Shown here: positions 19,341-43,081 of the stretch, one piece after another
Numbering within the stretch: the first letter of the stretch is position 1
How the letters are laid out: each line of letters begins with the position of its first letter
Made by a program: the position numbers and the translations under genes
From: Candidatus Abzuiibacterium crystallinum
Lineage (GTDB): Bacteria > Omnitrophota > Omnitrophia > Omnitrophales > Abzuiibacteriaceae
NCBI GenBank assembly: GCA_002787155.1
Contig: PCVY01000028.1
Span: forward strand, 9,478 to 73,477
Direction of reading: 5' to 3'
DNA length: 64,000 bases
The notes under the pieces: model-generated
Databases searched by the model: none
Seen by the model: the letters and a program-made list of their open reading frames with translations, nothing else
Told to the model about the DNA's origin: nothing

Positions 19341-19346
19341 ACAAAG

Positions 19347-20897: not shown

Positions 20898-20898
20898 G

Positions 20899-20921
20899 TG
20901 GCAGCCTTGGCTGCTTTTTTT
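20899..20921 (+). terminator. Rho-independent terminator (GC stem followed by a T-tract)
   Basis: The sequence GGCAGCCTTGGCTGC followed by TTTTTTT lies immediately after the stop codon of the gene at 19347..20897. Confidence 0.5.
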
Positions 20922-21027
20922 GGAAATGTTATACTTGAAAAAGATGGTCTCACATTATAGGGTCAGTGCCTTGCGACCGATAATAAAAGGACTTAAATTC
21001 AGGTAAATAGAATAAAGGATTAAAGCG

Positions 21028-23034: not shown

Positions 23035-23048
23035 CGCGTGGCCGCCGC

Positions 23049-23384: not shown

Positions 23385-23473
23385 TTAGATTGTTGGTTCA
23401 CTTAGCATTGAAAACACTTAAGCATTTACTAGCAACAAACGATGATATTCTATAGAATAGAGGCGTTTTTTCA

Positions 23474-25398: not shown

Positions 25399-26195
25399 CC
25401 GAAGAATTAAAGCAGCAAATCAGATTGTTTTGGGATCGCTATCCATGTGCTGCTGATCGATCTAATCAGGAACGTTATTCAAAAACTTATTTCGAAGAAT
25501 TAGCTCAAAAAAGATACCTCATTGAACCAGAAATTATCTCCTTCGCCCAATTTGATCACTATCGCGGTAGAGACGTCCTGGAGGTTGGTGTTGGTCCTGG
25601 GCACGATTTCAGGCAATGGGTAGCAGCCGGTGCCAATGCCTATGGCATTGACTTCTCATCTGAAGCCATTCATCACACCACCGCTTATCTGCAGCACTTT
25701 GGGTTAAACGCCAAGGAAATAAAAATAGGAGATGCAGAGAATCTCCCCTATCCGGCAGACCGATTCGATTTGGTTTACAGCTGGGGCGTCCTTCATCACA
25801 CGCCTGATACTCAAAAAGCATTGAGTGAAATAGTGCGTGTTTGTCAGCCTGGCGGTATTTGCAAAGTGATGTTTTATCACCGCAACTCTCTTTATGCGTT
25901 TTATCTGTGGCTAAAATACGCTCTATTGAAAGGCCGCCCTTGGCAATCGTTCGGCTGGTGCATCGGTCATTTTCTTGAAAGCCCGGGCACACAAGCTTTT
26001 TCTGTGACCGAAGTGAGAAAAATGCTAAACCGCTTACCTGTCCAAATAATTAAAATATCACCTACACTCACCTATTATGATCTTCTTAAGAATCGCTCCG
26101 CACCCATTCGGGCATTCGCTTGGCTACTCTCGTTTTTGCTGGGCGGGAATCGTGTCGGTTGGTTTATGCTAATCGAGTTTCAAAAGAAAAACTAA
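25395..26195 (+). CDS. Class I SAM-dependent methyltransferase
   Basis: Motif I VLEVGVGPGHD. The protein is 266 aa. Confidence 0.7.
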   Translation: MTEELKQQIRLFWDRYPCAADRSNQERYSKTYFEELAQKRYLIEPEIISFAQFDHYRGRDVLEVGVGPGHDFRQWVAAGANAYGIDFSSEAIHHTTAYLQHFGLNAKEIKIGDAENLPYPADRFDLVYSWGVLHHTPDTQKALSEIVRVCQPGGICKVMFYHRNSLYAFYLWLKYALLKGRPWQSFGWCIGHFLESPGTQAFSVTEVRKMLNRLPVQIIKISPTLTYYDLLKNRSAPIRAFAWLLSFLLGGNRVGWFMLIEFQKKN

Positions 26196-27433
26196 TGTGG
26201 TATTTTATTTAAAATTGAGCGGTATAAATCCATAAATCGGTTTAACTGGGTAGTCTGTGAGAACTCAGATTTTATTTGATTGCGACACTTCGTTGCCATT
26301 TGATATCGTGCGCTGTTCTGGCTTGCCAATGTTAAAATTCCCTTTGCCAAAGCTGTGACGTCCATAACAGGCACAACATAGCCGGTTTCCCCATGTTTAA
26401 CAACCTCGGCGATACCTCCCGAATCAAAAGCTACGACCGGCGTCCCGCATGCCATACTTTCTAAAACTGCATTCGGTAAATTATCGGCTAAAGTGGGTAA
26501 TGCAAAAATATCGGCAGCTGAATAAATCAACGCCATTTGCCGCGGATCGTCGATATGCTCCATGGTAATTGTATGACACGGCAAATCTTTCTTTTGCCGT
26601 TTTGCACCATTGCCCACCACCATTAGCGTCAGATGACTAAGTTCGTTTTGCTCAAAACTTTCCAATGCTTTGATGAGATATGAGAAACCTTTTCTCTTTT
26701 CATGAATAAAATGAGCGCTAAACAAAATAATTTTCTGGTCCGCCGCGTTGATGCCAAGCTTCCGCCGAGCTTCTAACTTATCAATTGCTTGAAAAGTTTC
26801 TATATCAATCCCGTTGGGAATCGTGCATGATTCAAAATGGCTTAATAAAGGGCTTTGCTTCACCTTTTCATGCATCCAACGGCTCGGTGTCACAATAATC
26901 ATCTTTGATTTGGCATAGACTTCTTTTTTAAGACGCCAATGCAAGGCAGAGGTATCAAAATAAAGAGGCGGAAAAGCTGAGAGGTGCGGACAAGCGCCGC
27001 AACCCGTTTTCCAGCGTTCGCATTCGTAAGAATAACCGCAATGTCCGGTAAAAGACCACATGTCTGATAGACGCCAAACAACCGGTTTAAGATGCGACAA
27101 GGACGGCAGTGCACGATAACTAAAATAACTGCCGTGAATATTAAATAATTGAATAATATCTGCCTCCTTTACCCAAGGGTGGTCTTTGAGTTGAAATGAG
27201 GACGGGCAATAGAGATATTGCAAACTTAAATGGTCACATACAAAATGGCATGCACGGTCGATCCACCAACGGTATCCAGAGACAATGGGCTGCACGTCGG
27301 GGTCATGCGTTCTTTTGATGCGCACCAACATTCGGGAATCAACACCGTGAGATTTCAAACCCGTGTGGATCACAAGCCCTGATCGCGCGGCCCCGCCCGT
27401 CAAATCATTTTCATTAATGTGCAAAATTCGCAT
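26192..27433 (-). CDS. GT4 family (GT-B) glycosyltransferase
   Basis: C-terminal GT4 signature (…ESMACGTPVVAFDSGGIAEVV…). An N-terminal Cys-rich segment is present (CGYSYECERWKTGCGACPH). The protein is 413 aa. Confidence 0.7.
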   Translation of the reverse strand: MRILHINENDLTGGAARSGLVIHTGLKSHGVDSRMLVRIKRTHDPDVQPIVSGYRWWIDRACHFVCDHLSLQYLYCPSSFQLKDHPWVKEADIIQLFNIHGSYFSYRALPSLSHLKPVVWRLSDMWSFTGHCGYSYECERWKTGCGACPHLSAFPPLYFDTSALHWRLKKEVYAKSKMIIVTPSRWMHEKVKQSPLLSHFESCTIPNGIDIETFQAIDKLEARRKLGINAADQKIILFSAHFIHEKRKGFSYLIKALESFEQNELSHLTLMVVGNGAKRQKKDLPCHTITMEHIDDPRQMALIYSAADIFALPTLADNLPNAVLESMACGTPVVAFDSGGIAEVVKHGETGYVVPVMDVTALAKGILTLASQNSARYQMATKCRNQIKSEFSQTTQLNRFMDLYRSILNKIPH

Positions 27434-27439: not shown

Positions 27440-29395
27440 CTACCCGCTTAACTCTTTGACTGAAAAAGTTGGATAACCAACCGCTTGATTCTCAATGTAG
27501 ATCATATGCCACAACTGAAACATCACCATCGACCAAATTTGCCATGTGTAATCAGCTTTTCCTTCCAAATGTGGCTTAACAAATTGCTGATAAAAAGCGG
27601 GTTGGAATATATTTTGACGACCTAGTCGTTCGGGATTCGTTAATCGTTCCGCCAGAGGCTTAAGTCGTGTTCGGAGCCAAAGTCCGATGGGAATGACAAA
27701 GCCTCGTTTATGAGCCCCGCAAATCTCCGTCGGTAAAACATGGGCTAGCGATTTCTTAAGTAAATATTTAAGATTGGTTGATTGGGTTCTTTGGTGAGGC
27801 GGAATAGACATCACCAACTCGACAAACTCATGATCTAAATAAGGAACTCTCGCCTCGAGCGAGTGCGCCATTGACAAACGATCCGTCATCAATAAAAACT
27901 CATCAGCCAATTGGGTTTTAAAATCGAGTGCTGCAATTTGATTACGAAAGGACGGTGAATCATTTTGATCAAAAATGGTTTGCAATGCCTGGCGTGTATT
28001 AAAACCTGCTACGCCTTTGTCTTGAAAGATACTTCTTTGCTTCATTTCTTCGGTGGCATAGTATAACGGCGTGACGTAGTAACGACTCAGCGCTCCGTAA
28101 CCAAAATCAAGCCACTCTTCCGCTTTTTTCTTCAAGCGCTGACGAAACCGATTCTCCCGCAACAAATCCAGCATGCTAAGAACCGGCGCTCGTAGTCCGC
28201 TCAGTAACCCGACTGATTGAAGTGGGGACTTCATGAAAGGTGCAAGACAGCTTTGCTCAAAACGTCTGAACTTCCCGTAATTACCAAACAACTCATCACC
28301 GCCGGTACCGCTAATCCCAACCTTGACCGTTTTACTCATGAACCGAAATACGTACCAGGATGGTAAGCCGCCGCCATAAGGCTCATCCAATGCGTAAACC
28401 ATCTGCACGAGATCTTCCAAGAGTTCATCGCTGCTCAAGGTGAGTTCATGATGCTCCGTCGACCAACGTTCAGCAACTACCTTTGCAAGCGGCAACTCGT
28501 TCCAAACTTCCTCTCGTTCACCCTTAAAGCCTAGTGAGTAAGTTTTAACAGGGCCCGTTGAAACTTCAGCCGCCAGTCCGACCAATCCCGAAGAATCAAT
28601 ACCGCCGGAAAGCGAAAAACCAACTGGGACATCACTGATTAATCGCCTTTTAACTGCCTGTGTGAGTTTGTCTCGAATACGCCCCGACCATTCCTCGGCG
28701 GTCCATTGAGTTTGATTTTTAAAATCAAGCGACCAATACGACTGCGTTTGAAACTGTTTCTCTTCAAGATCGTAAGTAAAAAAATGTCCCGGCAGTAATC
28801 TTTTAACTTTCTGAATGATGGATGACTCGCCCGGGACATATAACAATGTAAAATAATGGTAAAGACTTTCGGTATCGATTTCCCTCTCAACACAAGGCAG
28901 AGTTAAAATTGCTTTTAATTCAGAAGCAAAAATAAAACGTTCCGGCTGTTCTAAATAGTAGAACGGCTTAATGCCTATACGGTCTCGAGCGCCAAATAAG
29001 GCATTCTTTCGTTTATCAAAAATCACAAAAGCAAACATGCCATTGAGCTCTTTCAGCATCTGCGGACCTTGATCAGCATATGCGTGCAGCAAAACTTCGG
29101 TATCTGAATGAGAAGTCCGAAATTCAAACCCCTTCGACATCAGGCGTTTTCTGATTTCGCCAGCATTGTAGATTTCCCCGTTAAAAACAATCCAAAGCGT
29201 TTCATCCAGATTACCCATCGGTTGATGCCCGCCTTTGACATCGATCACACTTAACCGGCTCATGCCTAAAGCCAATTGAGATGACGGGTGATGAAACTCG
29301 CCTGTGTCATCCGGGCCGCGGTGCCGCATCGATTCATACATACGCGCCACCCAGCCTTCCTTTTGACGTCCTGCAATGCCTGCAATTCCACACAT
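27440..29395 (-). CDS. Asparagine synthetase B-like glutamine amidotransferase, a candidate sugar-uronamide-forming WbpS-like enzyme
   Basis: N-terminal nucleophile MCGIAGIAG. PP-loop SLSGGIDSS. The protein is 651 aa. Located in a glycan operon with a Ugd-like dehydrogenase. Confidence 0.7.
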   Translation of the reverse strand: MCGIAGIAGRQKEGWVARMYESMRHRGPDDTGEFHHPSSQLALGMSRLSVIDVKGGHQPMGNLDETLWIVFNGEIYNAGEIRKRLMSKGFEFRTSHSDTEVLLHAYADQGPQMLKELNGMFAFVIFDKRKNALFGARDRIGIKPFYYLEQPERFIFASELKAILTLPCVEREIDTESLYHYFTLLYVPGESSIIQKVKRLLPGHFFTYDLEEKQFQTQSYWSLDFKNQTQWTAEEWSGRIRDKLTQAVKRRLISDVPVGFSLSGGIDSSGLVGLAAEVSTGPVKTYSLGFKGEREEVWNELPLAKVVAERWSTEHHELTLSSDELLEDLVQMVYALDEPYGGGLPSWYVFRFMSKTVKVGISGTGGDELFGNYGKFRRFEQSCLAPFMKSPLQSVGLLSGLRAPVLSMLDLLRENRFRQRLKKKAEEWLDFGYGALSRYYVTPLYYATEEMKQRSIFQDKGVAGFNTRQALQTIFDQNDSPSFRNQIAALDFKTQLADEFLLMTDRLSMAHSLEARVPYLDHEFVELVMSIPPHQRTQSTNLKYLLKKSLAHVLPTEICGAHKRGFVIPIGLWLRTRLKPLAERLTNPERLGRQNIFQPAFYQQFVKPHLEGKADYTWQIWSMVMFQLWHMIYIENQAVGYPTFSVKELSG

Positions 29396-29420: not shown

Positions 29421-31109
29421 CTAAAGCTCCGTTAGGAAATCTTCTTTTCGAGATTGCGCTATCCAATCTGCAAATGCCCTCAAATCGGCTGCCTGACGCC
29501 AATCTTGCTCGTTATGGATATGAAGATGTGTTTGCACATCAGCCATTTCGCTTTTATCAAATTCAACCGAGAAAGATTTAATTGGAAGCGGTCTTTTTAA
29601 GAAAACACCAAACCCAAAGCGCTCCGCCAATTCTTGCTCTGAACTGGAAAGTCTTTTAATTTGATGAATGTTTTTAATACGGTACAAATAATCTGCTTGA
29701 TTCTCAGAATCACATGTAAAGCCTTTGCGGTCATAGCGCCCTGTCCCTGCCGTCAGCACTGGAATCCCAAAGGAAGCAGCTTCAATCCCGATGGTGCCGC
29801 GAACCGTCACACAATAATCCATGGTCTCAAACAATGAGAAGGTGTTCATCGGGTGATGGCTTGCCACGACTTTAATGTGAGAGGGTAGCCGCCCGATATG
29901 CTTTTTGATTGCAGTAACTTCAGATGGCTCTCCTTTACACCCATCACGAGCATCTTTTACCATATTCGCAGGGTGGACCTTGATTAACCAATTCACTGCT
30001 TTATTTTCAGCAGCGGCTTTCACAGTTTCAATTAACCAATCTTCATAATTGCGGAACAAATCTTCTCCCCAAAAAAAAGTACCGTCCCATAGAATATGGG
30101 AGAAAATTACCGCTATTTTTTTGTTGGGATCTAAGCTGAATTCCTGAACCATCTGCTCTTTTTTCATCATCTTTTTATTCACTTGTGTACCGACTTCGCT
30201 GTACCATTCCCCGTTCTCATAGCATGTTTTTAATTCATTCAACAACTGTTCGCTTTTTTTTGCACTCCAAGGCTCTTGTTTCATGCGCTGCCACGACTCG
30301 TTTGAAAGGGACGAATGATGTTCGTCTCGATTACTCGGATAATAACGTTTAAACATCAATGTGTTATTCTTATGCGCCACATTCCAAGTGACCGCTGGAA
30401 TGCCTTTCTCGATGCAGATATCAAAAGCTTCAGCATGCGGCGTATAGCCGCGATGCCCAAAAATAGCAATATCCGGCTTTAAGCTCTCCATTAAACCATT
30501 AAATCGTTTGGCATAAGCGATGGCGGAGGCCAAGGCATACGTTAAGTGTTTTCGCACTTTAATATCATGGATATCCAGCATGCCTACTCTGAGTTTTCTT
30601 AAAGCAGTGGATGCGGCAAATCGGCCGACACGCGCACCTAAGCATTCGACAGCCAATAGATCCTCAAAGGTTTTTAATCGATTCACCTTTTCTCCTGCCT
30701 CTTGCAATTCCTTCAGACTGGGAAAAGTATCACAATAGGATAACGAAATATTGCGATTAAGCCTTTGGTAACGATCTGCCCAGGACTCAGGCACCATCCA
30801 GACATGCGATTTAAAATTACCCAATTCAAGCCCTTTAATCAAAACCAATTCCATTTCTGTCACCGATGGCGACCCAATGTTCATGACAAGCGCTTTTCTG
30901 GCGGGCTGTTCTTTTGTGAGCTTGACGGATAAAACTTGGAAGTAATGTTGCTTGAAGTTTTGAAAACGAGCAGCTGCTTTTCGGCGTAAACGGCGTTTTG
31001 ATTCGGAAAAGTATGAAAAAAAGTCTATAAAAAAATAATAAGCGCTAGGCCACAAGCCTAACGCGATCAATAGCTTTCGGACAGAGGCTTTAATTAAGTG
31101 CGCAATCAA
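29421..31109 (-). CDS. Hypothetical protein, a candidate GT-B-type capsule-synthesis-like glycosyltransferase carrying an 'HP' motif
   Basis: The 562 aa product has a KVHPANM motif reminiscent of the HP motif of sialyl/Kdo transferases. It lies immediately upstream of NeuC-like and NeuB-like genes. There are no strong family motifs otherwise. Confidence 0.3.
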   Translation of the reverse strand: MIAHLIKASVRKLLIALGLWPSAYYFFIDFFSYFSESKRRLRRKAAARFQNFKQHYFQVLSVKLTKEQPARKALVMNIGSPSVTEMELVLIKGLELGNFKSHVWMVPESWADRYQRLNRNISLSYCDTFPSLKELQEAGEKVNRLKTFEDLLAVECLGARVGRFAASTALRKLRVGMLDIHDIKVRKHLTYALASAIAYAKRFNGLMESLKPDIAIFGHRGYTPHAEAFDICIEKGIPAVTWNVAHKNNTLMFKRYYPSNRDEHHSSLSNESWQRMKQEPWSAKKSEQLLNELKTCYENGEWYSEVGTQVNKKMMKKEQMVQEFSLDPNKKIAVIFSHILWDGTFFWGEDLFRNYEDWLIETVKAAAENKAVNWLIKVHPANMVKDARDGCKGEPSEVTAIKKHIGRLPSHIKVVASHHPMNTFSLFETMDYCVTVRGTIGIEAASFGIPVLTAGTGRYDRKGFTCDSENQADYLYRIKNIHQIKRLSSSEQELAERFGFGVFLKRPLPIKSFSVEFDKSEMADVQTHLHIHNEQDWRQAADLRAFADWIAQSRKEDFLTEL

Positions 31110-31145
31110 TGGCGAGTCTCACCTTTGCATCGGAATCAAGATGCT

Positions 31146-32159
31146 TTAAGTCATTTCATCAATGATGTAGGGCGATTCGGTGCTTTCCCACTTTTCAAAA
31201 ATACTAGCCGATTCTAGTATGGCGCGAACGCCCTTTTGAAGCGAAACGGTCGGTTTAAAGCCTAACAATTTTTGTGCCTTGCGGCCGGAGCAATAGCGGT
31301 GCCTGATTTCTCTGTGCGCGGTCCTGTCCGCCCCTTTAAAATTGCGGCGGTGTTTAATCGGTAGATGTGAGTTCCCAATAATCTTTCTCACCATTCCGGC
31401 AAGATCATTAATTGTGACAGGTTCACGGCTATTCCCCAAATCAATCACATGCCCATTGGCGCTGTTTTTTTGAAGCGCGGCCACTACACCCCGAGCGGTA
31501 TCACTGGCATAGCAATATGACCTTACTTGATTACCATTGCCATTAATGACCAACGGCTTGCCCCGCAGCGCATTTAAAATAAATCTTGGTAAAACAAATT
31601 GGGCGGGCTGATAAGGTCCATAAGCGTTGAAAAACCTTAAAATAACAAAATTAAAATCAGGATATTTTTGAGCGTATCCTTTGCAAAGTTCTTCACCCGC
31701 TAACTTGCTAATGGCATAAACGGATTTTCCCTGTGTCATCGCATTCTCATCGATCGGGTTTTGAAGGGGCTCTCCATAAACTTCAGAGGAAGATGCAAAA
31801 ATGAACTTTTTGATGCGATACTGAATCGCACAATCCAGTACCATTTTAGTGCCATCAATATTGACTTCTAAGCATCTTAAACGATTGACTTCGGTACGCT
31901 TAACTCCCAATAGTGCCGCTAAATGAATAACGGCATTGCAACCCTCCATGGCTTCACGAATGGTTGAATGATCCAAAATGGAACCATAAAAGATACGGAC
32001 TTTGGCCGGAATAGCAGAGCGGACTCTGGCAATTTGTTCACCCAAGTCAAGCAAATGCACCTTAAAACCCTGGGAAACAAGTTCATGGCACACCTGAAGA
32101 CCGATACAGCCGGCTCCTCCCGTTACTAAAACCCTTTTGTACCGCACCTGAGATTTCAT
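31146..32159 (-). CDS. NAD-dependent epimerase/dehydratase (UDP-sugar 4-epimerase-like)
   Basis: N-terminus VLVTGGAGCIGLQVCHEL. A YxxxK context is present (YAISK). The protein is 337 aa. Confidence 0.7.
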   Translation of the reverse strand: MKSQVRYKRVLVTGGAGCIGLQVCHELVSQGFKVHLLDLGEQIARVRSAIPAKVRIFYGSILDHSTIREAMEGCNAVIHLAALLGVKRTEVNRLRCLEVNIDGTKMVLDCAIQYRIKKFIFASSSEVYGEPLQNPIDENAMTQGKSVYAISKLAGEELCKGYAQKYPDFNFVILRFFNAYGPYQPAQFVLPRFILNALRGKPLVINGNGNQVRSYCYASDTARGVVAALQKNSANGHVIDLGNSREPVTINDLAGMVRKIIGNSHLPIKHRRNFKGADRTAHREIRHRYCSGRKAQKLLGFKPTVSLQKGVRAILESASIFEKWESTESPYIIDEMT

Positions 32160-33310
32160 TAATAAGTCATCCTTTTGATTTTGAATCTCTCTAAATTAAC
32201 ACATTCTAAAATCTTCAAGATCCTTTCTGAACTATGTCCGTCACCGTAAGGATTGCGGCACTGTTTCAGCTGCTTTTGATACCGCTGATTGCCAATCACA
32301 TATTTAATTGCTTTCAAAATCACATGGCGCCTAAAATTAGGGACATGAATGACATTTGAAGCGCACATTCGATCAATTTGGCGATTACCAATATTCACTG
32401 CCGCTAATTTAAAAGAGGGCGCTTCTAAAATACTGGCGCTTGAATTGCCTAGCAAAACTTTAACGTATTTTAACAAACTTAAGAAAATAGGCCTGTCAAT
32501 ATTGCGATAAACTTTGATGTTTGAATGCTTAGCATATCGATGAATGGTTTCAATGATCTTCTGCCCGCCCGCATCTACATTCGGATAAATCACAATGGTT
32601 TCATATCCGCTTAATCGCGCGGCTGCCAATGTTTCGTTCATTTGCCGGGCAGACTTATCCATTTCATACAAGACGGGATGTTGAATAATCAATAAAACCG
32701 GTTTTGAAAAATCACATTTAAAAATCCTTTTAATCTCTTCTTTTGACAGTTTCTTGCCTTGGACCACTTCATCCAGTTGAGGGGCGCCGACATTGAAAAC
32801 ACGCCAACGCTCCTCTCCCATTTTAATCACACGGTCAGCCGAATCTTGACAAGCCGGAAAATGAATATGAGCCAATTTGGTAATCGCATGCCGTGCGGAA
32901 CCATCAATATGGCCCGATAAATCACCGGACTGAATATGGGCCACTATTTTATTCATATAACAAGCCGCAACTGCCGCACCTAACATCTCTGCTCTATCCC
33001 CACTGAGAAGTACGACATCAGGATCTAAACGATCAAAAACACGTGCCATGCCTTGTATTTCAATACCCAGCGACCTGGTCCATTCCAGTGCGGTGTCATG
33101 CCGAACTGTCATATCCACTGTTGCCGCAGGCTTAAGCCCATCTCGTTTGATTTCATTAATTGTATAACCAAACCGCTTCATTAAATGCATGCCGGTAACA
33201 ACCAATTGAAGTTCTGAACGTTTCGACTTCTTGATTAACTTCATCAAACGCTTGGAATAACCGTAAGTGGCCCTGGCTGCCGTGATGACGGCAATGCGAC
33301 GTTTTCTCAT
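32159..33310 (-). CDS. UDP-N-acetylglucosamine 2-epimerase (hydrolysing), NeuC/LegG-like
   Basis: N-terminal IAVITAARATYGYSKRLMKLIKKSKRSELQLVVTGMHL matches the NeuC N-terminus (…VVTGTRAEYG…ELQLIVTGMHL). Confidence 0.75.
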   Translation of the reverse strand: MRKRRIAVITAARATYGYSKRLMKLIKKSKRSELQLVVTGMHLMKRFGYTINEIKRDGLKPAATVDMTVRHDTALEWTRSLGIEIQGMARVFDRLDPDVVLLSGDRAEMLGAAVAACYMNKIVAHIQSGDLSGHIDGSARHAITKLAHIHFPACQDSADRVIKMGEERWRVFNVGAPQLDEVVQGKKLSKEEIKRIFKCDFSKPVLLIIQHPVLYEMDKSARQMNETLAAARLSGYETIVIYPNVDAGGQKIIETIHRYAKHSNIKVYRNIDRPIFLSLLKYVKVLLGNSSASILEAPSFKLAAVNIGNRQIDRMCASNVIHVPNFRRHVILKAIKYVIGNQRYQKQLKQCRNPYGDGHSSERILKILECVNLERFKIKRMTY

Positions 33311-33314
33311 GCTT

Positions 33315-34355
33315 CTATTTTAGTTGACTCCAGCGGATCTGAACATTTTTTGGAATGTCGACACGTGCAATTTTTCCGATGACCTTCTTGTAATCTTTCG
33401 CCGGCACCGCACCTTTGGCAGGACTTGGTCTTTTTACCCAAACCATTTCAGGTTTGATACGGGTGCCTTTCTTAATTGATTTTTCAGAAACAACACTTTC
33501 TCTTGCCCAAGCAACAATTTCTTTTTCTTCGGGGAATATTTTTCGCTCAGCCCCTAAGGCTTGAAAAACGGCGTCGGCTCCTTTCACCAATTCTGTCAAC
33601 TCATGCGGCTCGATGGAAACAGGATGATCCGGCCCTTTTTGAAGTTTATCGAGCGTGTAATGTTTTTCAATCAAGCAAACGCCCAACGCCACACCGCCTA
33701 AAGCTGTATAGATGCCTCTTGAATGATCTGAAAGTCCAACCGGCACTTTAAATAACTCTGCGTACTTCTTAATCAAGCCTAAATTAACAATATGATAGGG
33801 CGTGGGATAAGCAGACACGCAATGTGTCACAATAAGCGGTGTGCCAATTAATTGAATAAGATCAACCGTTTCTTTAATTTCATTGATGGTACACATCCCC
33901 GTCGAAACAATCATGGGTTTGCCTTTGCGGGCAATATGCTCTTGGAGCGGTAAGTTGGTCAATTCACCCGAACCTGTTTTATAAGCCGAAACACCCAATG
34001 CTTCGAGTAAATCCGCACCCTTACGGCTAAAAGGTGTGCACAAATAAAGAATGCCGAGATCTTCGCACAGTTCCTTTAGTTTTTTGTGCTCGGCAATCGA
34101 TAAGTTTGTTTTCTTTAAGGTGTCATAAAGAGGTTCTTCAAAATTAGCCGATTGAGGTGCATCTTTAAGCATTTCATTTTCAAGCACATGGATTTGAAAC
34201 TTAATGGCATCTGCACCCGAAGCATGAGCCGTGTAAACCATTCGTTTAGCCGTTTCAAAATCACCTTGGTGATTTACAGCCGCTTCGGCCACGATAAAAG
34301 GTTTGTGCCCCGGCCCAACCAATCGATTGCCTATTTTGACTGCTTTGATAGCCAC
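33315..34355 (-). CDS. Nonulosonic acid synthase (NeuB/LegI/PseI family) with a C-terminal SAF domain
   Basis: FIVAEAAVNHQGDFETAKRMVYTAHASGADAIKFQ matches NeuB (IAEIGCNHNG…AGADAVKFQ). The protein is 346 aa. It is adjacent to the NeuC-like gene. Confidence 0.8.
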   Translation of the reverse strand: MAIKAVKIGNRLVGPGHKPFIVAEAAVNHQGDFETAKRMVYTAHASGADAIKFQIHVLENEMLKDAPQSANFEEPLYDTLKKTNLSIAEHKKLKELCEDLGILYLCTPFSRKGADLLEALGVSAYKTGSGELTNLPLQEHIARKGKPMIVSTGMCTINEIKETVDLIQLIGTPLIVTHCVSAYPTPYHIVNLGLIKKYAELFKVPVGLSDHSRGIYTALGGVALGVCLIEKHYTLDKLQKGPDHPVSIEPHELTELVKGADAVFQALGAERKIFPEEKEIVAWARESVVSEKSIKKGTRIKPEMVWVKRPSPAKGAVPAKDYKKVIGKIARVDIPKNVQIRWSQLK

Positions 34356-34409: not shown

Positions 34410-35543
34410 TCAATGACTTATCGGCTCTTTTCCAAACCTCCTAAATCCTGCCTCCCAAATCATACAGCCCACATGCCGCCAACTTCTAGGTTCTGCGGCA
34501 ACTAGAAATAAAGATTTCCACGCCGCCCTAAAAAAGGAAAAACGCACACAGTAAAGAAAAAATTGTGCGATTGCCTTATACCGATGCGGCTCATCTTCAC
34601 CTATGACATAACCGAGGCCCCGCTGAAGGCATCGCATCGCTTCGTTTTTCATGCTTAACTTACGGAAACATTTCGCAATTGAAATACAATAAAGATACTT
34701 ATTCGCCATCATGGGATCATAGCTAATGCGCACCATTCCCTGATTAAGTTTTTCGTCGGCTTTTCTTCTTTCGTTATTCTTAATGTTTTGTATCGCTTTC
34801 TCAATCAAAGCATCAACCGATTCTGTAAAGTTTGGCAACGATTGTTTAGAATTTGGCGGAAACTGAAAGAAAATAGAATTGGTTCTATAATGACGCCGAA
34901 CCGGTAAATGAGAACGCACCCTATCTTTTTCTAAAACTATTTCAACTTTGCTGAGCATATTGATTGGCACTTGATTAGCTTCTATCCAATTCCAGACATG
35001 GCGAGCCTCCGGCGTATGTGCCAAGCGATCATGAAAAGCGATGTCTTGCATAAAAATAGCTCCGCTAATTCGCGGAAAAACGTTTTCGATATACCATTTG
35101 GCAAACCATGCTTCATGACAGCTATCTATGAGTAAAAAATCTGCCGTGCTTGGCGCAGATTGGATCGTTTCAACCACGTCGCCCAAATGAACAACGAGTC
35201 TGTTTGTGTCCCAATGGACATTTTGATTATTTCGAATGACAGATTCCGTATCCTGCCCATTTGTTTTGCGTAACAATTCAAACGAATGAACAACCCCTTT
35301 TTGATTTCTTGTTAAAGCTCCTAAAATATAATTGGTAGACCATCCGGCTGCCGGTGAAATTTCAAAAACAATTTCGGGTTTCAATTCTCTAATAGCAAGA
35401 TAAAGCATTTCACCCTCTGTATCGCCAAAAGCAGGCTTAAACCGCTGTTTTGCCATTTTAAAATAAATGTCTCTCAGCTCATCGGCTAACTCATATAGCT
35501 CATCCTGATATTTTGAATATAAAGCCAAGAAATCGATCATCAT
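34410..35543 (-). CDS. Putative methyltransferase-like protein (TylF/CmcI-like fold)
   Basis: KPEIVFEISPAAGWSTNYILGAL resembles the E-x-G…S motif of the TylF/CmcI family. The ORF-track start overlaps the upstream gene by 112 bp, so the start is trimmed here to the ATGATGA junction. Confidence 0.4.
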   Translation of the reverse strand: MMIDFLALYSKYQDELYELADELRDIYFKMAKQRFKPAFGDTEGEMLYLAIRELKPEIVFEISPAAGWSTNYILGALTRNQKGVVHSFELLRKTNGQDTESVIRNNQNVHWDTNRLVVHLGDVVETIQSAPSTADFLLIDSCHEAWFAKWYIENVFPRISGAIFMQDIAFHDRLAHTPEARHVWNWIEANQVPINMLSKVEIVLEKDRVRSHLPVRRHYRTNSIFFQFPPNSKQSLPNFTESVDALIEKAIQNIKNNERRKADEKLNQGMVRISYDPMMANKYLYCISIAKCFRKLSMKNEAMRCLQRGLGYVIGEDEPHRYKAIAQFFLYCVRFSFFRAAWKSLFLVAAEPRSWRHVGCMIWEAGFRRFGKEPISH

Positions 35544-36607
35544 TTTATCGGTAAACCAGCCAACCTCAATTGAATTAGACGAATGAAGAAAATAACTTTT
35601 CTGTACCAAGGCATATTCCGTGCGGTCAGAACACTTGCCAATACTTTGCACAGGTTCATCGGGTTTTTCTTCGCTTCAAAAGACAATGGCCAGCCAAAAG
35701 AATTAAATACGCGCCTGCCAATGCAGCTTTCGATTTGCCTGACATCTTTTTCTGAAAGCTTATCTTTCCAATAAGCAACGCCTTGTGAGGAAACCTGCTC
35801 AAACTGAAAACCGTGCATTGAGTTCCCTTGCCATGGGATGCCTGCTCTGGTCGGCTGAAGTAAGATATTATCCCATGAACTATTAAATGTTTTGACTAAC
35901 ATTTGCATCATTTGCTTAGGGTCGGCAGTTAGCATTTCATAGGTCATAAAAATAAATCGATTCTTACTTGACCCATGAAATCTTTTCTGGCAAGTCACGG
36001 CACACAGCAAGCTTCCGCTCCAATCTGAAAGAAAAGTATGAATGTTAAAATCAGGATCTATTCTCTTGGTTAAAGTTTTTGAGTATGAGTAGAAATTCGC
36101 ACGGGGATCTCTTAGAATATAAACAAATTGCGCTTTCGGAAATAATTTTAGCATCTTATCGATGTACAACTCGTTTAAAGGAGTTTTCTCGACCCAATAA
36201 CGAAATGATTGATTCACTTGACCGGAAACATCTCGATAAGCCAAAAGAAGCGCTTTGAGTAAACCAGCCTCAGAGTAACCGTCTATTTTCCAATAGTTTT
36301 CGAGCGCTTGCTTATATTGATCAAATTGGATCTGCGGATAGTCTACCAAACCAATGTCAGTCGTTTCAGAGGCGCCGATTCTAAAATGTTTGACGCCTGT
36401 GTCTTGGTAAATAGATTCTAAAATCTTTTCCCGTTTGACACCTTTTCTTATCATCGGAAGTAGATCGCCAAAAAAACGCGTTTCTTCCGGCATGACTAAA
36501 AAGTCGGGATGAGAATCCAAGAGGGACAATGTTAACGTTGTCCCCGATTTGGGAAAACCGCAAATAAAAATAGGCGTTAACTGATCAAATGTTTTAAGGG
36601 AATCCAC
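35540..36607 (-). CDS. Sulfotransferase (PAPS-dependent)
   Basis: 5'-PSB motif FICGFPKSGTT. 3'-PB motif ILRDPRANFYS (RDP…S). The protein is 355 aa. Confidence 0.75.
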   Translation of the reverse strand: MDSLKTFDQLTPIFICGFPKSGTTLTLSLLDSHPDFLVMPEETRFFGDLLPMIRKGVKREKILESIYQDTGVKHFRIGASETTDIGLVDYPQIQFDQYKQALENYWKIDGYSEAGLLKALLLAYRDVSGQVNQSFRYWVEKTPLNELYIDKMLKLFPKAQFVYILRDPRANFYSYSKTLTKRIDPDFNIHTFLSDWSGSLLCAVTCQKRFHGSSKNRFIFMTYEMLTADPKQMMQMLVKTFNSSWDNILLQPTRAGIPWQGNSMHGFQFEQVSSQGVAYWKDKLSEKDVRQIESCIGRRVFNSFGWPLSFEAKKNPMNLCKVLASVLTARNMPWYRKVIFFIRLIQLRLAGLPIK

Positions 36608-36612
36608 GGTAT

Positions 36613-37524
36613 TTATTGATTGTTTCCTTGTAAAACAGCAAAACGAACCTGGTCATTCGGCAATCGATCTAATGCTACTTCTTTTTGCCATTGAAAGTCT
36701 CGGGGATACCAGGGATGGCCTGATGTATAGAGAAACATGAGTAAGTATCGATCACTTTTTGTCGGTTTCAAACCTTTGTGATACCCAGAAGTGTCTGCAA
36801 TCACGATTGAATGTTTTTCCCCTGCACAAATTCGCCACTGACTTTCCGGCGCCACTGCAATCATTTTCTCATCTCGAATTCGACCATCTTTTTCTGCCTG
36901 CGCTTGTTTAGCAATACTGCCGCGCGCATGGGTTTTTGGGACGTAACAAAAAGGTCCATTTTCTTTTGTAACGTCATTAAGATAAATAAACACCTTAACA
37001 TTCATCACGTCGATATAATCACGATGCCAATATTGCGTCTCCGCTTCAGCCTGTTGGGTCGGAAAATCATGCCATATGTCAATCGCTCTTAAAAACCCCC
37101 ACATGCCTAAGTAGTCACCCACCATTTGAAGCAGCTCCGGTTGAAGCGCCAATTGAATCGCCGGATGTTCAAAACTTAGCATCTTTGACAAAAACATTTC
37201 TCGATATGCTTTTTCTCCTTTTGTTTGATAAGCGTTCTTTTGAAACGAAGCGACGCTCCTTTTCTGTTCGAGTTCATTCTCTATTTGCTCGAGCAAATGT
37301 TTGCTATGTGACGAGAAAAAATGGTTAACATGCGTACCAACAATACCTTCTTTTCTCAACTCTTGTGAAACCAGTGATAAAGCTGGGCGTTTGCTGGCGC
37401 GGGCATAGGATTGAACGCGTTGGCTGTTAAAACCATGCGACCACACGAAATACGAAATAGGCCGTAGCGCTGGAAAACGTATGATCCCCTGTGCGAAAGC
37501 ATGATATTGAGCAGGAATTGACAT
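36613..37524 (-). CDS. PhyH-family Fe(II)/2-oxoglutarate-dependent oxygenase
   Basis: H-x-D motif (YWHRDYID) and a downstream GPFCYVPKTH, consistent with the PhyH family. The protein is 303 aa. Confidence 0.55.
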   Translation of the reverse strand: MSIPAQYHAFAQGIIRFPALRPISYFVWSHGFNSQRVQSYARASKRPALSLVSQELRKEGIVGTHVNHFFSSHSKHLLEQIENELEQKRSVASFQKNAYQTKGEKAYREMFLSKMLSFEHPAIQLALQPELLQMVGDYLGMWGFLRAIDIWHDFPTQQAEAETQYWHRDYIDVMNVKVFIYLNDVTKENGPFCYVPKTHARGSIAKQAQAEKDGRIRDEKMIAVAPESQWRICAGEKHSIVIADTSGYHKGLKPTKSDRYLLMFLYTSGHPWYPRDFQWQKEVALDRLPNDQVRFAVLQGNNQ

Positions 37525-37543
37525 TTTAATGATCTTTCATAAA

Positions 37544-38491
37544 TTAAATCGGATATTTATAATCTTGTAAATCAAATTGAACGAGTTTCTGCAAATGCTG
37601 ATTACTTTCTTGGTAGTATGCTTTAAGACGCGTCCGCCATTCCGCAGACAAGATAGGCCGCCGTATCCCCATTAACTTTTCCAATCTGGCAATCCCATAA
37701 AACCATGCATAGGGGTTAAAAAACAGCGGCAAAAGTTTCGAACGATCCACAGGTCGTTTCAAAAAACCAGCCGGTTGAAACTCGGTTTTTGAAAAAAAAT
37801 TAAGCCATCGCACATACCGGCAAAAAAGCGGATCGTATCCCCGTCGCACATAAATTTTCATTTTGTCCGTTATTGTGATTGCGGGAACGCTTATCAATTG
37901 ACATATCTGATTACAAAATACTTGGATATTCCTAACCATCAGTTCATAAGGCAGTACTAAGACACGGCTCGCTCCAAAGCGATCTATGTAATATTGAACA
38001 AGTTGGTGATACCGCAAATGATCCAGTCTGAAATCACAATGTAATGTTTTTTGGCCCACAAAATCATTAAAGCGGCATGTCCCGCCGTTGAGGAGGTATT
38101 GCTTGTAAATTGACTCAACCATGTGAACTTGCTCACGCACTAAAATTAAAATCTTGGCTTGATGCAAAACCGCAGAGATACGATCCGCATTTCGCTTGGC
38201 ATCACTCGACCCTTTCCAAGGATTCCCGACCAATCCTTCACTGGAAAGTACAATGGTTTTTGGAGAATCTGATTTTTTAATGTTTGTATTGAAAATTGCT
38301 TGCCACTTGGCCGGTGCAAATTCAAAATCGTTCTCTGTAAAAACCGACTTGAGAAAATCATGAACCCATGGGACAGCGTCTGTGTAACGTTTTCCTAAAA
38401 AAAGGATATCGGGAAGTTGGGGGAAGAATATCTTTTGCAGCCAAGTAGAACCGGCTTTTTGATACCCGATGTGAATCATAAAGTCTGTCAT
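37544..38491 (-). CDS. Sulfotransferase-like protein
   Basis: N-terminal IHIGYQKAGSTWL (5'-PSB-like K-x-G-S-T). LVREQVHMVES (R-x7-S, 3'-PB-like). The protein is 315 aa. Confidence 0.55.
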   Translation of the reverse strand: MTDFMIHIGYQKAGSTWLQKIFFPQLPDILFLGKRYTDAVPWVHDFLKSVFTENDFEFAPAKWQAIFNTNIKKSDSPKTIVLSSEGLVGNPWKGSSDAKRNADRISAVLHQAKILILVREQVHMVESIYKQYLLNGGTCRFNDFVGQKTLHCDFRLDHLRYHQLVQYYIDRFGASRVLVLPYELMVRNIQVFCNQICQLISVPAITITDKMKIYVRRGYDPLFCRYVRWLNFFSKTEFQPAGFLKRPVDRSKLLPLFFNPYAWFYGIARLEKLMGIRRPILSAEWRTRLKAYYQESNQHLQKLVQFDLQDYKYPI

Positions 38492-38511
38492 GACAACAAA
38501 CCTTTCCTATA

Positions 38512-39807: not shown

Positions 39808-39810
39808 ATC

Positions 39811-40635
39811 TTAATAAGCAATCCCCAGGCTGTCCCCGGCATACCAGTGATCCAATGGCTCTTCATCCCATTTGATAAATTTCTTGTTCAATTCTTTCGA
39901 AAACTTAAGAAGCTCCTCTGTCTGATTTGCATTATCACTGACCAAAATAGAGCAAGATCTTAATTGGGCTTGGATGGTTTTGTATTCCTCTCGTTCATAT
40001 TCGGCTGCATGATGGCTGTCATGTATAAATAAATCAATCGGCAGCTTAAATTGCCTAAGCAATTCTATCGAATCCCCGTACAGCACTTCTCCAAATTGAG
40101 CATATGGTCCGGTTAATAAATAACCGCCGGATCGATCAATTTCTGTTCCGTAATATCGGCCTAAAAAACCCTCTTGTGAGTTGTTGAACAGTGCTGCGGT
40201 TATCAAACAAGCGCTCAACCCCTTATCAACCCCCGTCTCAACAACAACACGCGGTTTTAATACCCGGGTTAAAATATACCAAGCAACGCGCCTGCCAAAA
40301 CGCGGCACCGGATCCGAAGCGTAACGAACAGCGCTCGTCATTCTAACCTTAATTAAATGCGTCTTCAATCTTTCATCGGTTTCCACTTCTGCCGCAAAGC
40401 GCTGGATTTCTGCGAGAGGCCGGCCAGTCACATCAGCTAACATTTTGATGAGATTCTGCTTGTTGGCAGGCGTAATGTGATAAGTCAGATTATATAACTC
40501 ATTTGAGGTCAAAAGCCACTTGAGGAATTTAAAATTAAGCACCGGAATATATGAACGCATAATTTTGATGCGAAGCGGGATAAGGCACAGCCTTCCTAAA
40601 ATTGGTGTGTTCAAAATATGCTGTTTGAGCGTCAT
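39811..40635 (-). CDS. Putative SAM-dependent methyltransferase (CmcI/TylF-like)
   Basis: VVVETGVDKGLSACLITAAL and a downstream …LFIHDSHHAAEYERE… resemble the CmcI/Methyltransf_24 family. The protein is 274 aa. Confidence 0.45.
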   Translation of the reverse strand: MTLKQHILNTPILGRLCLIPLRIKIMRSYIPVLNFKFLKWLLTSNELYNLTYHITPANKQNLIKMLADVTGRPLAEIQRFAAEVETDERLKTHLIKVRMTSAVRYASDPVPRFGRRVAWYILTRVLKPRVVVETGVDKGLSACLITAALFNNSQEGFLGRYYGTEIDRSGGYLLTGPYAQFGEVLYGDSIELLRQFKLPIDLFIHDSHHAAEYEREEYKTIQAQLRSCSILVSDNANQTEELLKFSKELNKKFIKWDEEPLDHWYAGDSLGIAY

Positions 40636-40643
40636 AAAAATAT

Positions 40644-41954: not shown

Positions 41955-41961
41955 GAGCCCG

Positions 41962-43071: not shown

Positions 43072-43081
43072 GTCATGACCT

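What the first reader, a model, noticed from the sequence alone, without database searches (positions are those of the whole stretch)
29421..34355. NeuB/NeuC-like nonulosonic acid module next to a 562-aa unknown protein with an 'HP' motif, but no CMP-sugar synthetase in the window
The gene at 33315..34355 is a clear NeuB/LegI/PseI-family synthase. The gene at 32159..33310 is a hydrolysing UDP-GlcNAc 2-epimerase (NeuC/LegG-like). Upstream DegT, acetyltransferase and dehydratase-like genes could supply a Leg/Neu-type precursor. No NeuA-type CMP-NulO synthetase is recognisable within the 64 kb. The adjacent 562-aa protein (29421..31109) has no obvious family but carries KVHPANM, resembling the HP motif shared by sialyltransferases and KpsC/KpsS Kdo transferases. 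It is a candidate novel NulO transferase.
Basis: partly seen in the sequence, partly recalled or inferred. Interest (0 to 1): 0.55.

Follow-up and report, generated by a model that had tools for sequence, protein, structure and literature searches.

The report
Probable sialic-acid-type sugar transferase
The 562-aa "unknown" protein next to the sialic-acid-type sugar synthesis genes is very probably the enzyme that attaches that sugar to a cell-surface glycan: it is a distant, uncharacterised relative of the KpsC/KpsS capsule enzymes, and the sugar-activating enzyme (NeuA) is missing from this whole 87-kb contig.

Summary
NeuB (33315..34355), NeuC (32159..33310) and a 562-aa ORF (29421..31109) are intact on the minus strand, and no NeuA-type synthetase is found in the window or in about 82 kb of its 86.7-kb contig (Ca. 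Abzuiibacterium crystallinum, Omnitrophota).

The 562-aa protein ("X") is not family-less.
- It passes the Pfam threshold for PF05159 (the KpsC/KpsS family), as do 57 of 61 homologs.
- It models confidently (pLDDT 93) as a GT-B enzyme, and KpsC is the closest solved structure.
- It keeps the donor-site motifs in the KpsC/KpsS register: H338xxxD342, then 37 residues, then K377xH379P380. D342, H379 and P380 are invariant.

X belongs to a large family annotated only as hypothetical (930 clusters at E ≤ 1e-30). Of 56 genomic loci with enough flanking DNA, NeuA lies nearby in 51, NeuB in 49, NeuC in 47, and all three in 46. These loci include Chloroflexota and CPR bacteria.

X is therefore most likely a CMP-nonulosonate glycosyltransferase, possibly a retaining one. 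It is a divergent new branch of a known superfamily, not a new kind of system. The missing NeuA is exceptional but unresolved: it may lie elsewhere in the genome. Activity, donor, acceptor and stereochemistry are all untested. Interest is moderate.

The parts
29421..31109 (-). X: 562-aa GT-B glycosyltransferase of the PF05159 (KpsC/KpsS) superfamily and candidate CMP-nonulosonate transferase. It has an N-terminal three-helix extension (about residues 1-60), an N-domain (about 70-325), a donor-binding C-domain (about 325-480) and a C-terminal extension.
   Evidence: ORF. Pfam PF05159 at 28.4 bits against a gathering score of 20, matched by 57/61 homologs. AF2 pLDDT 93.2. Foldseek finds KpsC as the best two-domain match (TM 0.50-0.51) and as the top hit for the C-domain alone (E = 1.2e-5). 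Synteny with neuABC.
29970..29981 (-). K377-V-H379-P380, the (K/R)xHP CMP-binding and general-acid motif.
   Evidence: Translation. H379 and P380 are invariant and K377 is 98% conserved. hhalign aligns it to the KpsC VKVHP and KpsS IKHHP motifs. The motif is defined in PMC12887879.
30084..30098 (-). H338-I-L-W-D342, the counterpart of the QxxxD nucleophile motif of retaining Kdo transferases, with Q replaced by H.
   Evidence: Translation. D342 is 100% and H338 98% conserved. The Asp lies 37 aa before the HP His, against 34, 34 and 38 aa in KpsC-N, KpsC-C and KpsS, with a gapless match of the preceding KK-hydrophobic beta-strand. The role of D160 in KpsC is described in PMC10148158.
31146..32159 (-). 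SDR epimerase/dehydratase (337 aa) between neuC and X. Its role is unassigned.
   Evidence: PF01370 at 191 bits. TIGR04180 (LegB-like) scores only 167 bits against a 475-bit cut-off. A homolog lies within 6 kb of X in 30 of 83 X loci, in the same position in the Nitrospira-type loci.
32159..33310 (-). NeuC: hydrolysing UDP-GlcNAc 2-epimerase.
   Evidence: TIGR03568 at 409 bits, above the 236-bit cut-off, covering 365/365 positions. PF02350. 28% identical to E. coli K1 NeuC.
33315..34355 (-). NeuB-family nonulosonate synthase (NeuB plus SAF domains), of the Neu/Leg type rather than the Pse type.
   Evidence: PF03102 at 249 bits and PF08666. N. meningitidis NeuB scores 252 bits against 136 for PseI. 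36% identical to E. coli NeuB.
34410..35543 (-). Methyltransf_24 protein (377 aa as called). It occupies the slot directly upstream of neuB where related loci carry neuA.
   Evidence: Gene call and Pfam. Related loci L003, L008 and L010-L015 have neuA immediately upstream of neuB.
27440..29395 (-). AsnB-type glutamine amidotransferase, a conserved downstream neighbour of X. It is a possible glycan carboxylate amidase, but its role is unassigned.
   Evidence: PF00733 and GATase_7. TIGR01536 at 455 bits, above the 267-bit cut-off. It is present in 26 of 56 well-flanked X loci, usually 16-85 bp after X.
26192..27433 (-). GT4 glycosyltransferase, the conserved third gene of the X-AsnB-GT4 trio.
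   Evidence: PF00534 and PF13692. A homolog lies within 6 kb of X in 33 of 83 X loci.
38512..39807 (-). Wzt: ABC-transporter ATPase with a C-terminal carbohydrate-binding Wzt_C domain. It marks the probable export route of the glycan.
   Evidence: PF00005 at 81 bits plus PF14524 at 53 bits, above the 30-bit cut-off.
45520..46344 (-). Wzm: ABC-2 permease partner of Wzt.
   Evidence: PF01061 on the called gene.

Best explanation
X is a CMP-nonulosonate-dependent GT-B glycosyltransferase. It belongs to a large, uncharacterised and deeply divergent branch of the KpsC/KpsS/KpsS1 (PF05159) superfamily.

Proposed pathway:
- NeuC hydrolyses and epimerises UDP-GlcNAc to ManNAc.
- NeuB condenses ManNAc with PEP to give a Neu5Ac-type nonulosonic acid.
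- A NeuA-type synthetase makes the CMP-sugar. It is not encoded on this contig.
- X binds the CMP-sugar in its C-terminal Rossmann domain. K377 and P380 contact the cytosine, and H379 protonates the phosphate leaving group.
- X transfers the sugar to a lipid-linked glycan at the cytoplasmic face of the membrane.
- The glycan is further built by the neighbouring GT4, possibly amidated by the AsnB-like enzyme, and exported by Wzm/Wzt.

X keeps an invariant Asp (D342) exactly where KpsC and KpsS have their covalent nucleophile. It may therefore use the same retaining double-displacement chemistry.

Shown here: the family, the fold, the motifs and the gene linkage. Inferred: the donor identity, the acceptor, the retaining stereochemistry and the export route.
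For: 1. Family. PF05159 is above threshold for X and is the only Pfam family hit, matched by 57/61 homologs.

2. Fold. The AF2 model has pLDDT 93.2. Among PDB chains, KpsC gives the best TM-score (0.50-0.51 on the target, 316-319 columns); the other listed GT-B hits reach 0.39 at most, at rmsd 11-19 A. With the donor domain alone (pLDDT 90.5), four of the top five hits are KpsC entries (E = 1.2e-5 to 1.6e-4, about 20% identity), ahead of generic GT-B folds.

3. Motifs. KxHP is conserved and aligns to the KpsC and KpsS HP motifs. The TVRGTxGxE...GxPV...G..Y...GFT block aligns to the KpsC and KpsS blocks. HxxxD342 lies 37 aa before the HP His, against 34-38 aa in three characterised Kdo-transferase modules.

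4. Gene linkage. Of 56 loci with at least 6 kb on both sides of an X homolog, NeuA is within 10 kb in 51, NeuB in 49, NeuC in 47 and all three in 46. They are mostly on the same strand and within 0.1-4 kb. Two arrangements recur: neuA-neuB-neuC-(SDR)-X and neuB-neuC-neuA-X.

5. Taxa. Hosts include Chloroflexota (Anaerolineales, Dehalococcoidia) and CPR Peregrinibacteria/Peribacteria. From established knowledge these lack LPS and Kdo, so Kdo is an unlikely donor.

6. Precedent. PF05159 members KpsS1 (a Pse transferase, GT118) and Gtr59 sit next to NulO synthesis modules in Acinetobacter (PMC4487303, PMC12887879).
Against: - There is no biochemical data for any member of this family.
- Sequence similarity to characterised enzymes is only at motif level. 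The family profile finds no PDB sequence at E <= 10. hhalign probabilities are 4-28%.
- The Q of the 'invariant' QxxxD motif is H in X.
- No general-base residue could be assigned in the N-domain.
- In this genome the donor-activating enzyme NeuA is absent from the whole contig, so function in this organism depends on a gene I could not see.
- Four of the 56 well-flanked loci have no detectable neuABC nearby.
Confidence: 0.75

Rival explanations
1. X is a beta-Kdo transferase like KpsC, KpsS or WbbB. It would use housekeeping CMP-Kdo, for example to lay a Kdo linker or cap on the ABC-transporter-exported glycan. Its position next to neuB/neuC would be incidental.
For: The closest solved structures and the only Pfam family are Kdo transferases. 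The window has a Wzm/Wzt transporter with a Wzt_C domain, as in the WbbB system where beta-Kdo terminates the O-antigen (PMC12887879). No NeuA is present here. From established knowledge, a didermic Omnitrophota cell probably has KdsB.
Against: X homologs sit beside neuA, neuB and neuC together in 46 of 56 loci across more than 10 phyla. These include Chloroflexota and CPR lineages that lack LPS and Kdo. No kdsB, kpsF or kpsU-like gene is in the window. PF05159 also contains NulO transferases (PMC4487303). The QxxxD motif that is invariant in Kdo transferases is HxxxD in X.
Confidence: 0.08
2. X is a processive or polymerising NulO transferase (functionally like a polysialyltransferase) that builds a homopolymer, rather than adding single residues or a cap.
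For: KpsC, the nearest structural relative, is a polymerising enzyme with two tandem modules (PMC10148158). One family member (P0244, 1161 aa) is a tandem duplication of X. L001 carries two neuB/neuC pairs, which suggests a high NulO demand.
Against: X is a single module here. The locus is packed with other glycosyltransferases (GT2, GT4), O-methyltransferases and sulfotransferases, which fits a complex heteroglycan. X-methyltransferase fusions (P0284, P0305) fit terminal decoration better. There is no similarity to the GT38 polysialyltransferase.
Confidence: 0.1
3. The module does not function in this organism: neuA was lost and replaced by a methyltransferase gene. Alternatively, X is not a transferase and only binds or hydrolyses a CMP-sugar.
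For: NeuA is absent from the 86.7-kb contig, whereas only one other of the 56 related loci (L060) has neuB/neuC without neuA. A Methyltransf_24 gene occupies the neuA slot.
Against: neuB, neuC and X are all full-length, with complete domain coverage and all family-invariant residues. The same arrangement is found in several independent assemblies. neuA can be unlinked, and the rest of the genome was not searchable. The intact catalytic motifs argue for an active enzyme.
Confidence: 0.07

Closest known systems
KpsC (CAZy GT107), the retaining beta-Kdo transferase of group 2/3 capsules (PDB 6MGB, 6MGC, 8FUX)
   Same: It is the best structural match for the whole protein and for the donor domain. 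It shares Pfam PF05159, the (K/R)xHP motif, the Asp-containing xxxD motif 34-37 aa upstream of HP after a KK-hydrophobic strand, and the GxEA...GxPV block. It uses a CMP-activated 2-keto-3-deoxy acid sugar donor.
   Different: The X family profile finds no KpsC chain among PDB sequences at E <= 10, and hhalign probability is only 18%. X has H in place of the invariant Q. X is a single 562-aa module, against about 320 aa per KpsC module, with extra N-terminal helices and insertions. It is linked to neuABC rather than to kpsF/U and kpsMTED. It occurs in Kdo-less phyla.
KpsS1 (GT118) and Gtr59 of Acinetobacter baumannii, PF05159 transferases for pseudaminic and acinetaminic acids
   Same: Same Pfam family. 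The gene is adjacent to the NulO synthesis module, and a CMP-NulO donor is shown or predicted (PMC4487303, PMC12887879). This is the closest functional analogy.
   Different: KpsS1 is about 30% identical to E. coli KpsS (PMC12887879), whereas X aligns to a KpsS profile only over the motif blocks. The X-associated modules are of the NeuC/NeuB (Neu/Leg) type rather than the Pse type. The KpsS1 sequence itself was not available for a direct comparison.
WbbB GT99 module (Raoultella/Klebsiella), the beta-Kdo chain terminator of an ABC-transporter-dependent O-antigen
   Same: It has an HP motif and an Asp nucleophile, and it belongs to the same structural superfamily as KpsC. It works in a Wzm/Wzt system in which Wzt carries a carbohydrate-binding domain (PMC12887879). 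The window also has Wzt with Wzt_C.
   Different: WbbB was not among the top 50 Foldseek hits. X is not fused to other glycosyltransferase modules or a coiled coil. Only about a third of X loci carry Wzt.
Inverting bacterial sialyltransferases with an HP motif (GT38 NeuS, GT52, GT80)
   Same: They share the (K/R)xHP motif, a CMP-sialic acid donor and a GT-B fold (PMC12887879).
   Different: hhalign against E. coli NeuS gives no meaningful alignment (probability 0.5%). NeuS has its D/E-D/E-G motif 124 aa before HP and no [Q/H]xxxD motif. No sialyltransferase appears in the top 50 structural hits.

Membership tests
Pfam PF05159 Capsule_synth (KpsC/KpsS superfamily) | Score above the Pfam gathering threshold | tested here: met
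   28.4 bits against a gathering score of 20, E = 1.5e-6, covering X residues 357-471 and profile positions 171-278 of 310. 57 of 61 homologs match, and no other family is hit. Only the donor-domain half of the model is matched.
Pfam PF05159 Capsule_synth (KpsC/KpsS superfamily) | (K/R)xHP motif in the C-terminal Rossmann domain | tested here: met
   K377-V-H379-P380. H and P are invariant and K is 98% conserved. The motif aligns to KpsC K192-V-H-P and KpsS K273-H-H-P.
Pfam PF05159 Capsule_synth (KpsC/KpsS superfamily) | QxxxD motif carrying the catalytic Asp nucleophile | tested here: inconclusive
   X has H338-I-L-W-D342. The Asp is invariant and in the right register (37 aa before the HP His, against 34-38 aa), but Q is replaced by a 98%-conserved H. 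hhalign itself placed D342 opposite KpsC D155, followed by a 5-residue gap. The register argument is my inference.
Pfam PF05159 Capsule_synth (KpsC/KpsS superfamily) | Two-domain GT-B-like fold resembling KpsC | tested here: met
Pfam PF05159 Capsule_synth (KpsC/KpsS superfamily) | Retaining transfer of a CMP-activated ulosonic acid through a covalent Asp adduct | not testable with these tools
   This needs an enzyme assay, intact-mass detection of an adduct on a D342N or D342C variant, and NMR of the product.
CAZy GT107 (KpsC) / GT99 (WbbB) / GT140 (KrkA) | Significant sequence similarity to a founding member | tested here: not met
   The X-family HMM finds no KpsC, WbbB or KrkA chain among PDB sequences at E <= 10. 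hhalign against E. coli KpsC gives E = 0.0014 and probability 18%.
CAZy GT118 (KpsS1 pseudaminyltransferase) | Sequence similarity to KpsS1 or KpsS (KpsS1 is about 30% identical to KpsS) | tested here: inconclusive
   Against a 30-sequence KpsS profile, only 43-116 columns align, with probability 4-28%.
Inverting HP-motif sialyltransferases (GT38/GT52/GT80) | D/E-D/E-G motif plus HP motif, and similarity to NeuS or PmST1-type enzymes | tested here: not met
   HP is present, but there is no alignment to E. coli NeuS. NeuS has its EEG motif 124 aa upstream of HP, whereas X follows the KpsC-type spacing. No sialyltransferase is in the top 50 structural hits.
NulO biosynthesis module (NeuC-NeuB-NeuA) | Hydrolysing 2-epimerase, NulO synthase and CMP-NulO synthetase all present | tested here: not met
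   NeuC is met (409 bits, above cut-off). NeuB is met at family level (PF03102) but falls below the equivalog cut-off. NeuA is absent from the window and from the visible part of the contig.

The most novel reading that the evidence does not exclude
X founds a new CAZy-level glycosyltransferase family. It would be the main nonulosonate transferase of many environmental phyla (Nitrospira, Omnitrophota, Acidobacteriota, Chloroflexota, CPR). It would act on CMP-beta-Neu5Ac/Leg-type donors by the retaining Asp-adduct mechanism of the Kdo transferases, and would therefore make beta-linked sialic-acid-type residues, a linkage essentially undocumented for Neu5Ac in nature. In this Omnitrophota genome it may serve as a chain-capping signal read by the Wzt_C domain.
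Probability: 0.15. Interest if true: 0.7.

Novelty: new variant of a known kind. Interest (0 to 1): 0.42.

Why it matters
Nonulosonic acids have been reported widely in environmental bacteria (my recollection of survey work, not checked here), but my literature searches found no paper that names a transferase candidate for groups such as Nitrospira. This family gives a concrete, testable candidate.

- It is large: 930 clusters at 50% identity at E ≤ 1e-30.
- It is currently annotated only as "hypothetical".
- It is linked to neuABC in more than 80% of well-flanked loci.

The family also extends the recently expanding KpsC/WbbB/KpsS1/KrkA superfamily (GT99, GT107, GT118, GT140) with an HxxxD variant. 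If the enzyme is retaining, that raises an interesting question about the stereochemistry of its product. For genome annotation, the practical result is that these proteins should be named putative CMP-nonulosonate glycosyltransferases.

Tried and rejected
- HMM of the X family against all PDB sequences: no relevant hit at E <= 10. A sequence-level assignment to GT99, GT107 or GT140 was therefore dropped.
- NCBIfam: no family for X, only a sub-threshold exosortase hit.
- hhalign against E. coli KpsS, as a single sequence and as a 30-sequence profile: only a 43-column block. The KpsS homolog search returned only close enterobacterial KpsS (at least 64% identity), so the profile stayed narrow.
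- hhalign against NeuS (GT38): nothing. The inverting sialyltransferase membership was rejected.
- The KpsS1 (GT118) paper is not held.
- A replacement for NeuA in the window: the only nucleotidyltransferase is a sugar-1-phosphate type (PF00483). The unannotated ORFs at 41962..43071, 43864..44616 and 48702..49643 show no nucleotidyltransferase signal. There is no neuA remnant near neuB.
- The chain-terminator idea (NulO read by Wzt_C) stays speculative. Only 19 of 54 long X loci carry a Wzt-like ATPase and 10 a Wzt_C-like domain. L003 has Wzx/Wzy-type genes instead.
- A Leg/Pse-type diamino pathway fed by the distant DegT and acetyltransferase genes was judged unlikely.

Full report
**1. What is in the sequence**

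The region lies in a glycan-biosynthesis island of more than 50 kb that is almost entirely on the minus strand. The gene order, read 5' to 3' on the minus strand, is:

- sulfotransferase (35540..36607)
- Methyltransf_24 protein (34410..35543)
- NeuB (33315..34355)
- NeuC (32159..33310)
- SDR epimerase/dehydratase (31146..32159)
- the 562-aa protein X (29421..31109)
- AsnB-type amidotransferase (27440..29395)
- GT4 glycosyltransferase (26192..27433)

NeuC scores 409 bits on TIGR03568, above the 236-bit cut-off. NeuB hits PF03102 at 249 bits plus a SAF domain. NeuB is closer to N. meningitidis NeuB (252 bits) than to PseI (136 bits). X starts at a TTG that has an AGGTGA about 9 nt upstream.

The contig belongs to Candidatus Abzuiibacterium crystallinum (Omnitrophota). 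Identical ATP synthase beta, SmpB and T2SS-E proteins from the same 86.7-kb contig carry that name in NCBI and UniRef.

**2. NeuA is absent**

- No PARxGSK-type motif exists in any of the six frames.
- An HMM built from 60 NeuA proteins found next to X homologs scores at best E = 0.19 on all window ORFs.
- tblastn with those 60 proteins, E. coli NeuA and E. coli KdsB finds no remnant.
- The only nucleotidyltransferase (8154..8849) is a PF00483 sugar-1-phosphate enzyme.
- Walking outward with edge proteins showed that the parent contig (ENA k141_108258, 86,666 bp) has no CTP_transf_3 gene in the roughly 82 kb I could see.
- In related loci neuA sits directly upstream of neuB. Here that slot holds a Methyltransf_24 gene.

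**3. What X is**

*Family.* X is not family-less. Pfam PF05159 (Capsule_synth, the KpsC/KpsS family) matches residues 357-471 at 28.4 bits, above the gathering score of 20. It is the only Pfam family hit, and 57 of 61 homologs match it. NCBIfam has no model for X. A profile of the family finds no PDB sequence.

*Fold.* AlphaFold2 with a 61-sequence alignment gives a confident model (pLDDT 93.2, pTM 0.92). It has three N-terminal helices followed by two Rossmann-like domains.
- Foldseek against the PDB returns generic GT-B proteins (GT1 enzymes and UDP-GlcNAc 2-epimerases). These have TM-scores of 0.39 at most on the target and rmsd of 11-19 A.
- KpsC gives the highest TM-scores in that list: 8fux_A and 6mgb reach TM 0.50-0.51 on the target at rmsd 6.7-6.8 A over 316-319 columns.
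- I modelled the donor domain alone (residues 325-482, pLDDT 90.5). Four of its top five hits are KpsC entries (6mgb, 8fux, 8fuw, 6mgc; E = 1.2e-5 to 1.6e-4, about 20% identity).
- No sialyltransferase, WbbB or KrkA appears in the top 50.

*Motifs.* The literature defines three catalytic elements for retaining Kdo transferases (PMC10148158, PMC12887879):
- a (K/R)xHP motif, whose His is the general acid and which is shared with sialyltransferases;
- an invariant QxxxD motif, whose Asp forms the covalent sugar adduct;
- a general-base Glu in the N-domain.

X has K377-V-H379-P380, with H and P invariant and K 98% conserved. It also has H338-I-L-W-D342, with D invariant and H 98% conserved.

| Module | Motif | Residues from the Asp to the HP His |
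|---|---|---|
| KpsC N-module | Q156xxxD160 … K192xH194P | 34 |
| KpsC C-module | Q484xxxD488 … K520xH522P | 34 |
| KpsS | Q233xxxD237 … K273xH275P | 38 |
| X | H338xxxD342 … K377xH379P | 37 |

The preceding strand also matches without gaps (KKVILV in KpsC-C, KKIAVI in X).

hhalign aligns the HP motifs and the downstream TVRGTxGxEA…GIPV…G..Y…GFT block to both KpsC and KpsS, but with low probability (4-28%). E. coli NeuS (GT38) has a different layout: its EEG motif lies 124 aa before HP, it has no [Q/H]xxxD motif, and it does not align with X.

X therefore has the donor-site architecture of the retaining KpsC/KpsS-type enzymes, with one Q-to-H change. It does not have the architecture of the inverting sialyltransferases. 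I could not assign the general base.

**4. Family distribution and gene neighbourhood**

*Size and spread.* The word-indexed search gave more than 870 full-length relatives at 40-50% identity, and every hit that carries a source name is called hypothetical. The exhaustive profile search found 930 clusters at 50% identity at E ≤ 1e-30 and 3260 at E ≤ 1e-10. In one-genome-per-species contigs, 186 stretches encode a relative. The hosts include Nitrospira, Omnitrophota, Desulfobacterota, Acidobacteriota, Gemmatimonadota, Planctomycetota, Chloroflexota, CPR Peregrinibacteria/Peribacteria and alpha- and beta-proteobacteria. Three are named isolates or symbionts: Caenispirillum salinarum AK4, Paludibacterium purpuratum and Ca. 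Endobugula sertula.

*Neighbours.* I screened the 83 loci (82 fetched loci plus the window) by tblastn with the window's own proteins and with NeuA from L001 and L003. Among the 56 loci with at least 6 kb on both sides:

| Neighbour within 10 kb | Loci (of 56) |
|---|---|
| NeuA | 51 |
| NeuB | 49 |
| NeuC | 47 |
| NeuA, NeuB and NeuC together | 46 |
| AsnB-type amidotransferase | 26 |

- The neighbours are usually on the same strand and within 0.1-4 kb.
- Two arrangements recur: neuA-neuB-neuC-(SDR)-X-AsnB-GT4, typical of Nitrospira and matching the window apart from neuA; and neuB-neuC-neuA-X.
- Only one other locus (L060) has neuB/neuC without neuA, and four loci have none of the three.
- DegT-type aminotransferases lie near the module in only 2 of 49 loci. 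Together with the NeuC-type epimerase and the NeuB affinity, this points to a Neu5Ac-type sugar rather than a diamino Leg- or Pse-type sugar. That is an inference.

*Fusions.* The family includes a tandem double X (P0244) and X fused to a C-terminal SAM methyltransferase (P0284, P0305).

**5. How it most likely works**

The linkage to neuABC is the strongest functional evidence. It holds in phyla that lack LPS and Kdo (Chloroflexota and CPR, from established knowledge), which argues against Kdo as the donor.

There is precedent. PF05159 proteins KpsS1 (Pse transferase, GT118) and Gtr59 sit next to NulO modules in Acinetobacter (PMC4487303, PMC12887879).

I therefore assign X as a CMP-nonulosonate glycosyltransferase (confidence about 0.75).
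- Retaining double displacement via D342 is plausible from the motif register but is unproven.
- The acceptor is unknown.
- The conserved AsnB and GT4 neighbours suggest that a small module works on the same glycan.
- In this genome, export is probably through Wzm (45520..46344) and Wzt (38512..39807). Wzt carries a Wzt_C carbohydrate-binding domain (53 bits).
- A chain-capping role like that of WbbB beta-Kdo is possible but speculative, because Wzt is present in only about a third of X loci.

**6. Comparison with known families, and novelty**

In working principle X resembles KpsC, KpsS and KpsS1. In membership it meets the Pfam PF05159 threshold, the HP motif and the fold. It does not show significant sequence similarity to GT107, GT99 or GT140 structures. 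Its relation to GT118 could not be tested directly. It fails the tests for GT38-type sialyltransferases.

It is best described as a divergent, uncharacterised branch, and a potential new GT family, of a known superfamily, sitting in a known type of genetic arrangement. I rate it as a new variant of a known kind, of moderate interest.

The missing neuA is unusual among related loci. The most economical explanation is a gene located elsewhere in the genome, which I could not check.

Noticed in passing
window 50689..53226 (-) and 57644..60421 (-): Two large STT3/PglB-family oligosaccharyltransferase paralogs (845 and 925 aa, PF02516). They carry SWFDPGYF and SWWPPGYF where the canonical WWDYG motif would be. 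One lies inside the glycan island and the other next to type II secretion/pilus genes in this Omnitrophota genome.
   Followed up: partly
window 13367..17588 (-): A split transketolase-like pair, 15611..16579 (E1_dh/DXP_synthase_N) and 13367..14407 (Transket_pyr/Transketolase_C), flanks a DegT aminotransferase (14415..15614). A GHMP kinase (16581..17588) lies next to them. This looks like a pathway for a branched or two-carbon-extended amino sugar, separate from the NulO module.
   Followed up: no
window 17760..25398 (+): A plus-strand block holds three PMT_2 (ArnT-like) membrane glycosyltransferases (17760..19340, 19347..20897, 23938..25398). A B12-binding radical SAM enzyme (21028..23034) sits between them. 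L001 also has B12-binding radical SAM genes next to its X homolog.
   Followed up: no
window 34410..45536 (-): Between Wzm and NeuB there is an unusual density of glycan-tailoring genes. These are four Methyltransf_24/TylF O-methyltransferases, two sulfotransferases (35540..36607, 37544..38491), a PhyH dioxygenase (36613..37524) and a weak 2OG-oxygenase-like ORF (43864..44616). Homolog loci carry APS kinase genes (L001, L003), which suggests sulfated, methylated, NulO-bearing glycans.
   Followed up: partly
P0244, P0284, P0305, P0247, P0328, P0339: Architectural variants of the X family. P0244 is a tandem double X of 1161 aa, like the two-module KpsC. P0284 and P0305 are X fused to a C-terminal class I SAM methyltransferase. 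P0247, P0328 and P0339 have N-terminal extensions of 250-370 aa with no Pfam match.
   Followed up: partly
L044 11571..13430 (+): An uncultured Acidobacteriota locus encodes an apparent NeuA-NeuB fusion ORF of about 620 aa directly downstream of its X homolog.
   Followed up: no
L001 7435..9631 and 13553..15729: One X locus carries two separate neuB-neuC pairs but a single neuA and a single X. It also has two ABC-transporter ATPases, only one of which has a Wzt_C domain.
   Followed up: no
window 41962..43071 (-) and 48702..49643 (-): Two conserved ORFs (369 and 313 aa) inside the island have no significant Pfam family. The first has a sub-threshold STELLO glycosyltransferase hit (19.9 bits against a gathering score of 27.8) and a DDDN motif. 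Both may be unrecognised glycosyltransferases.
   Followed up: partly
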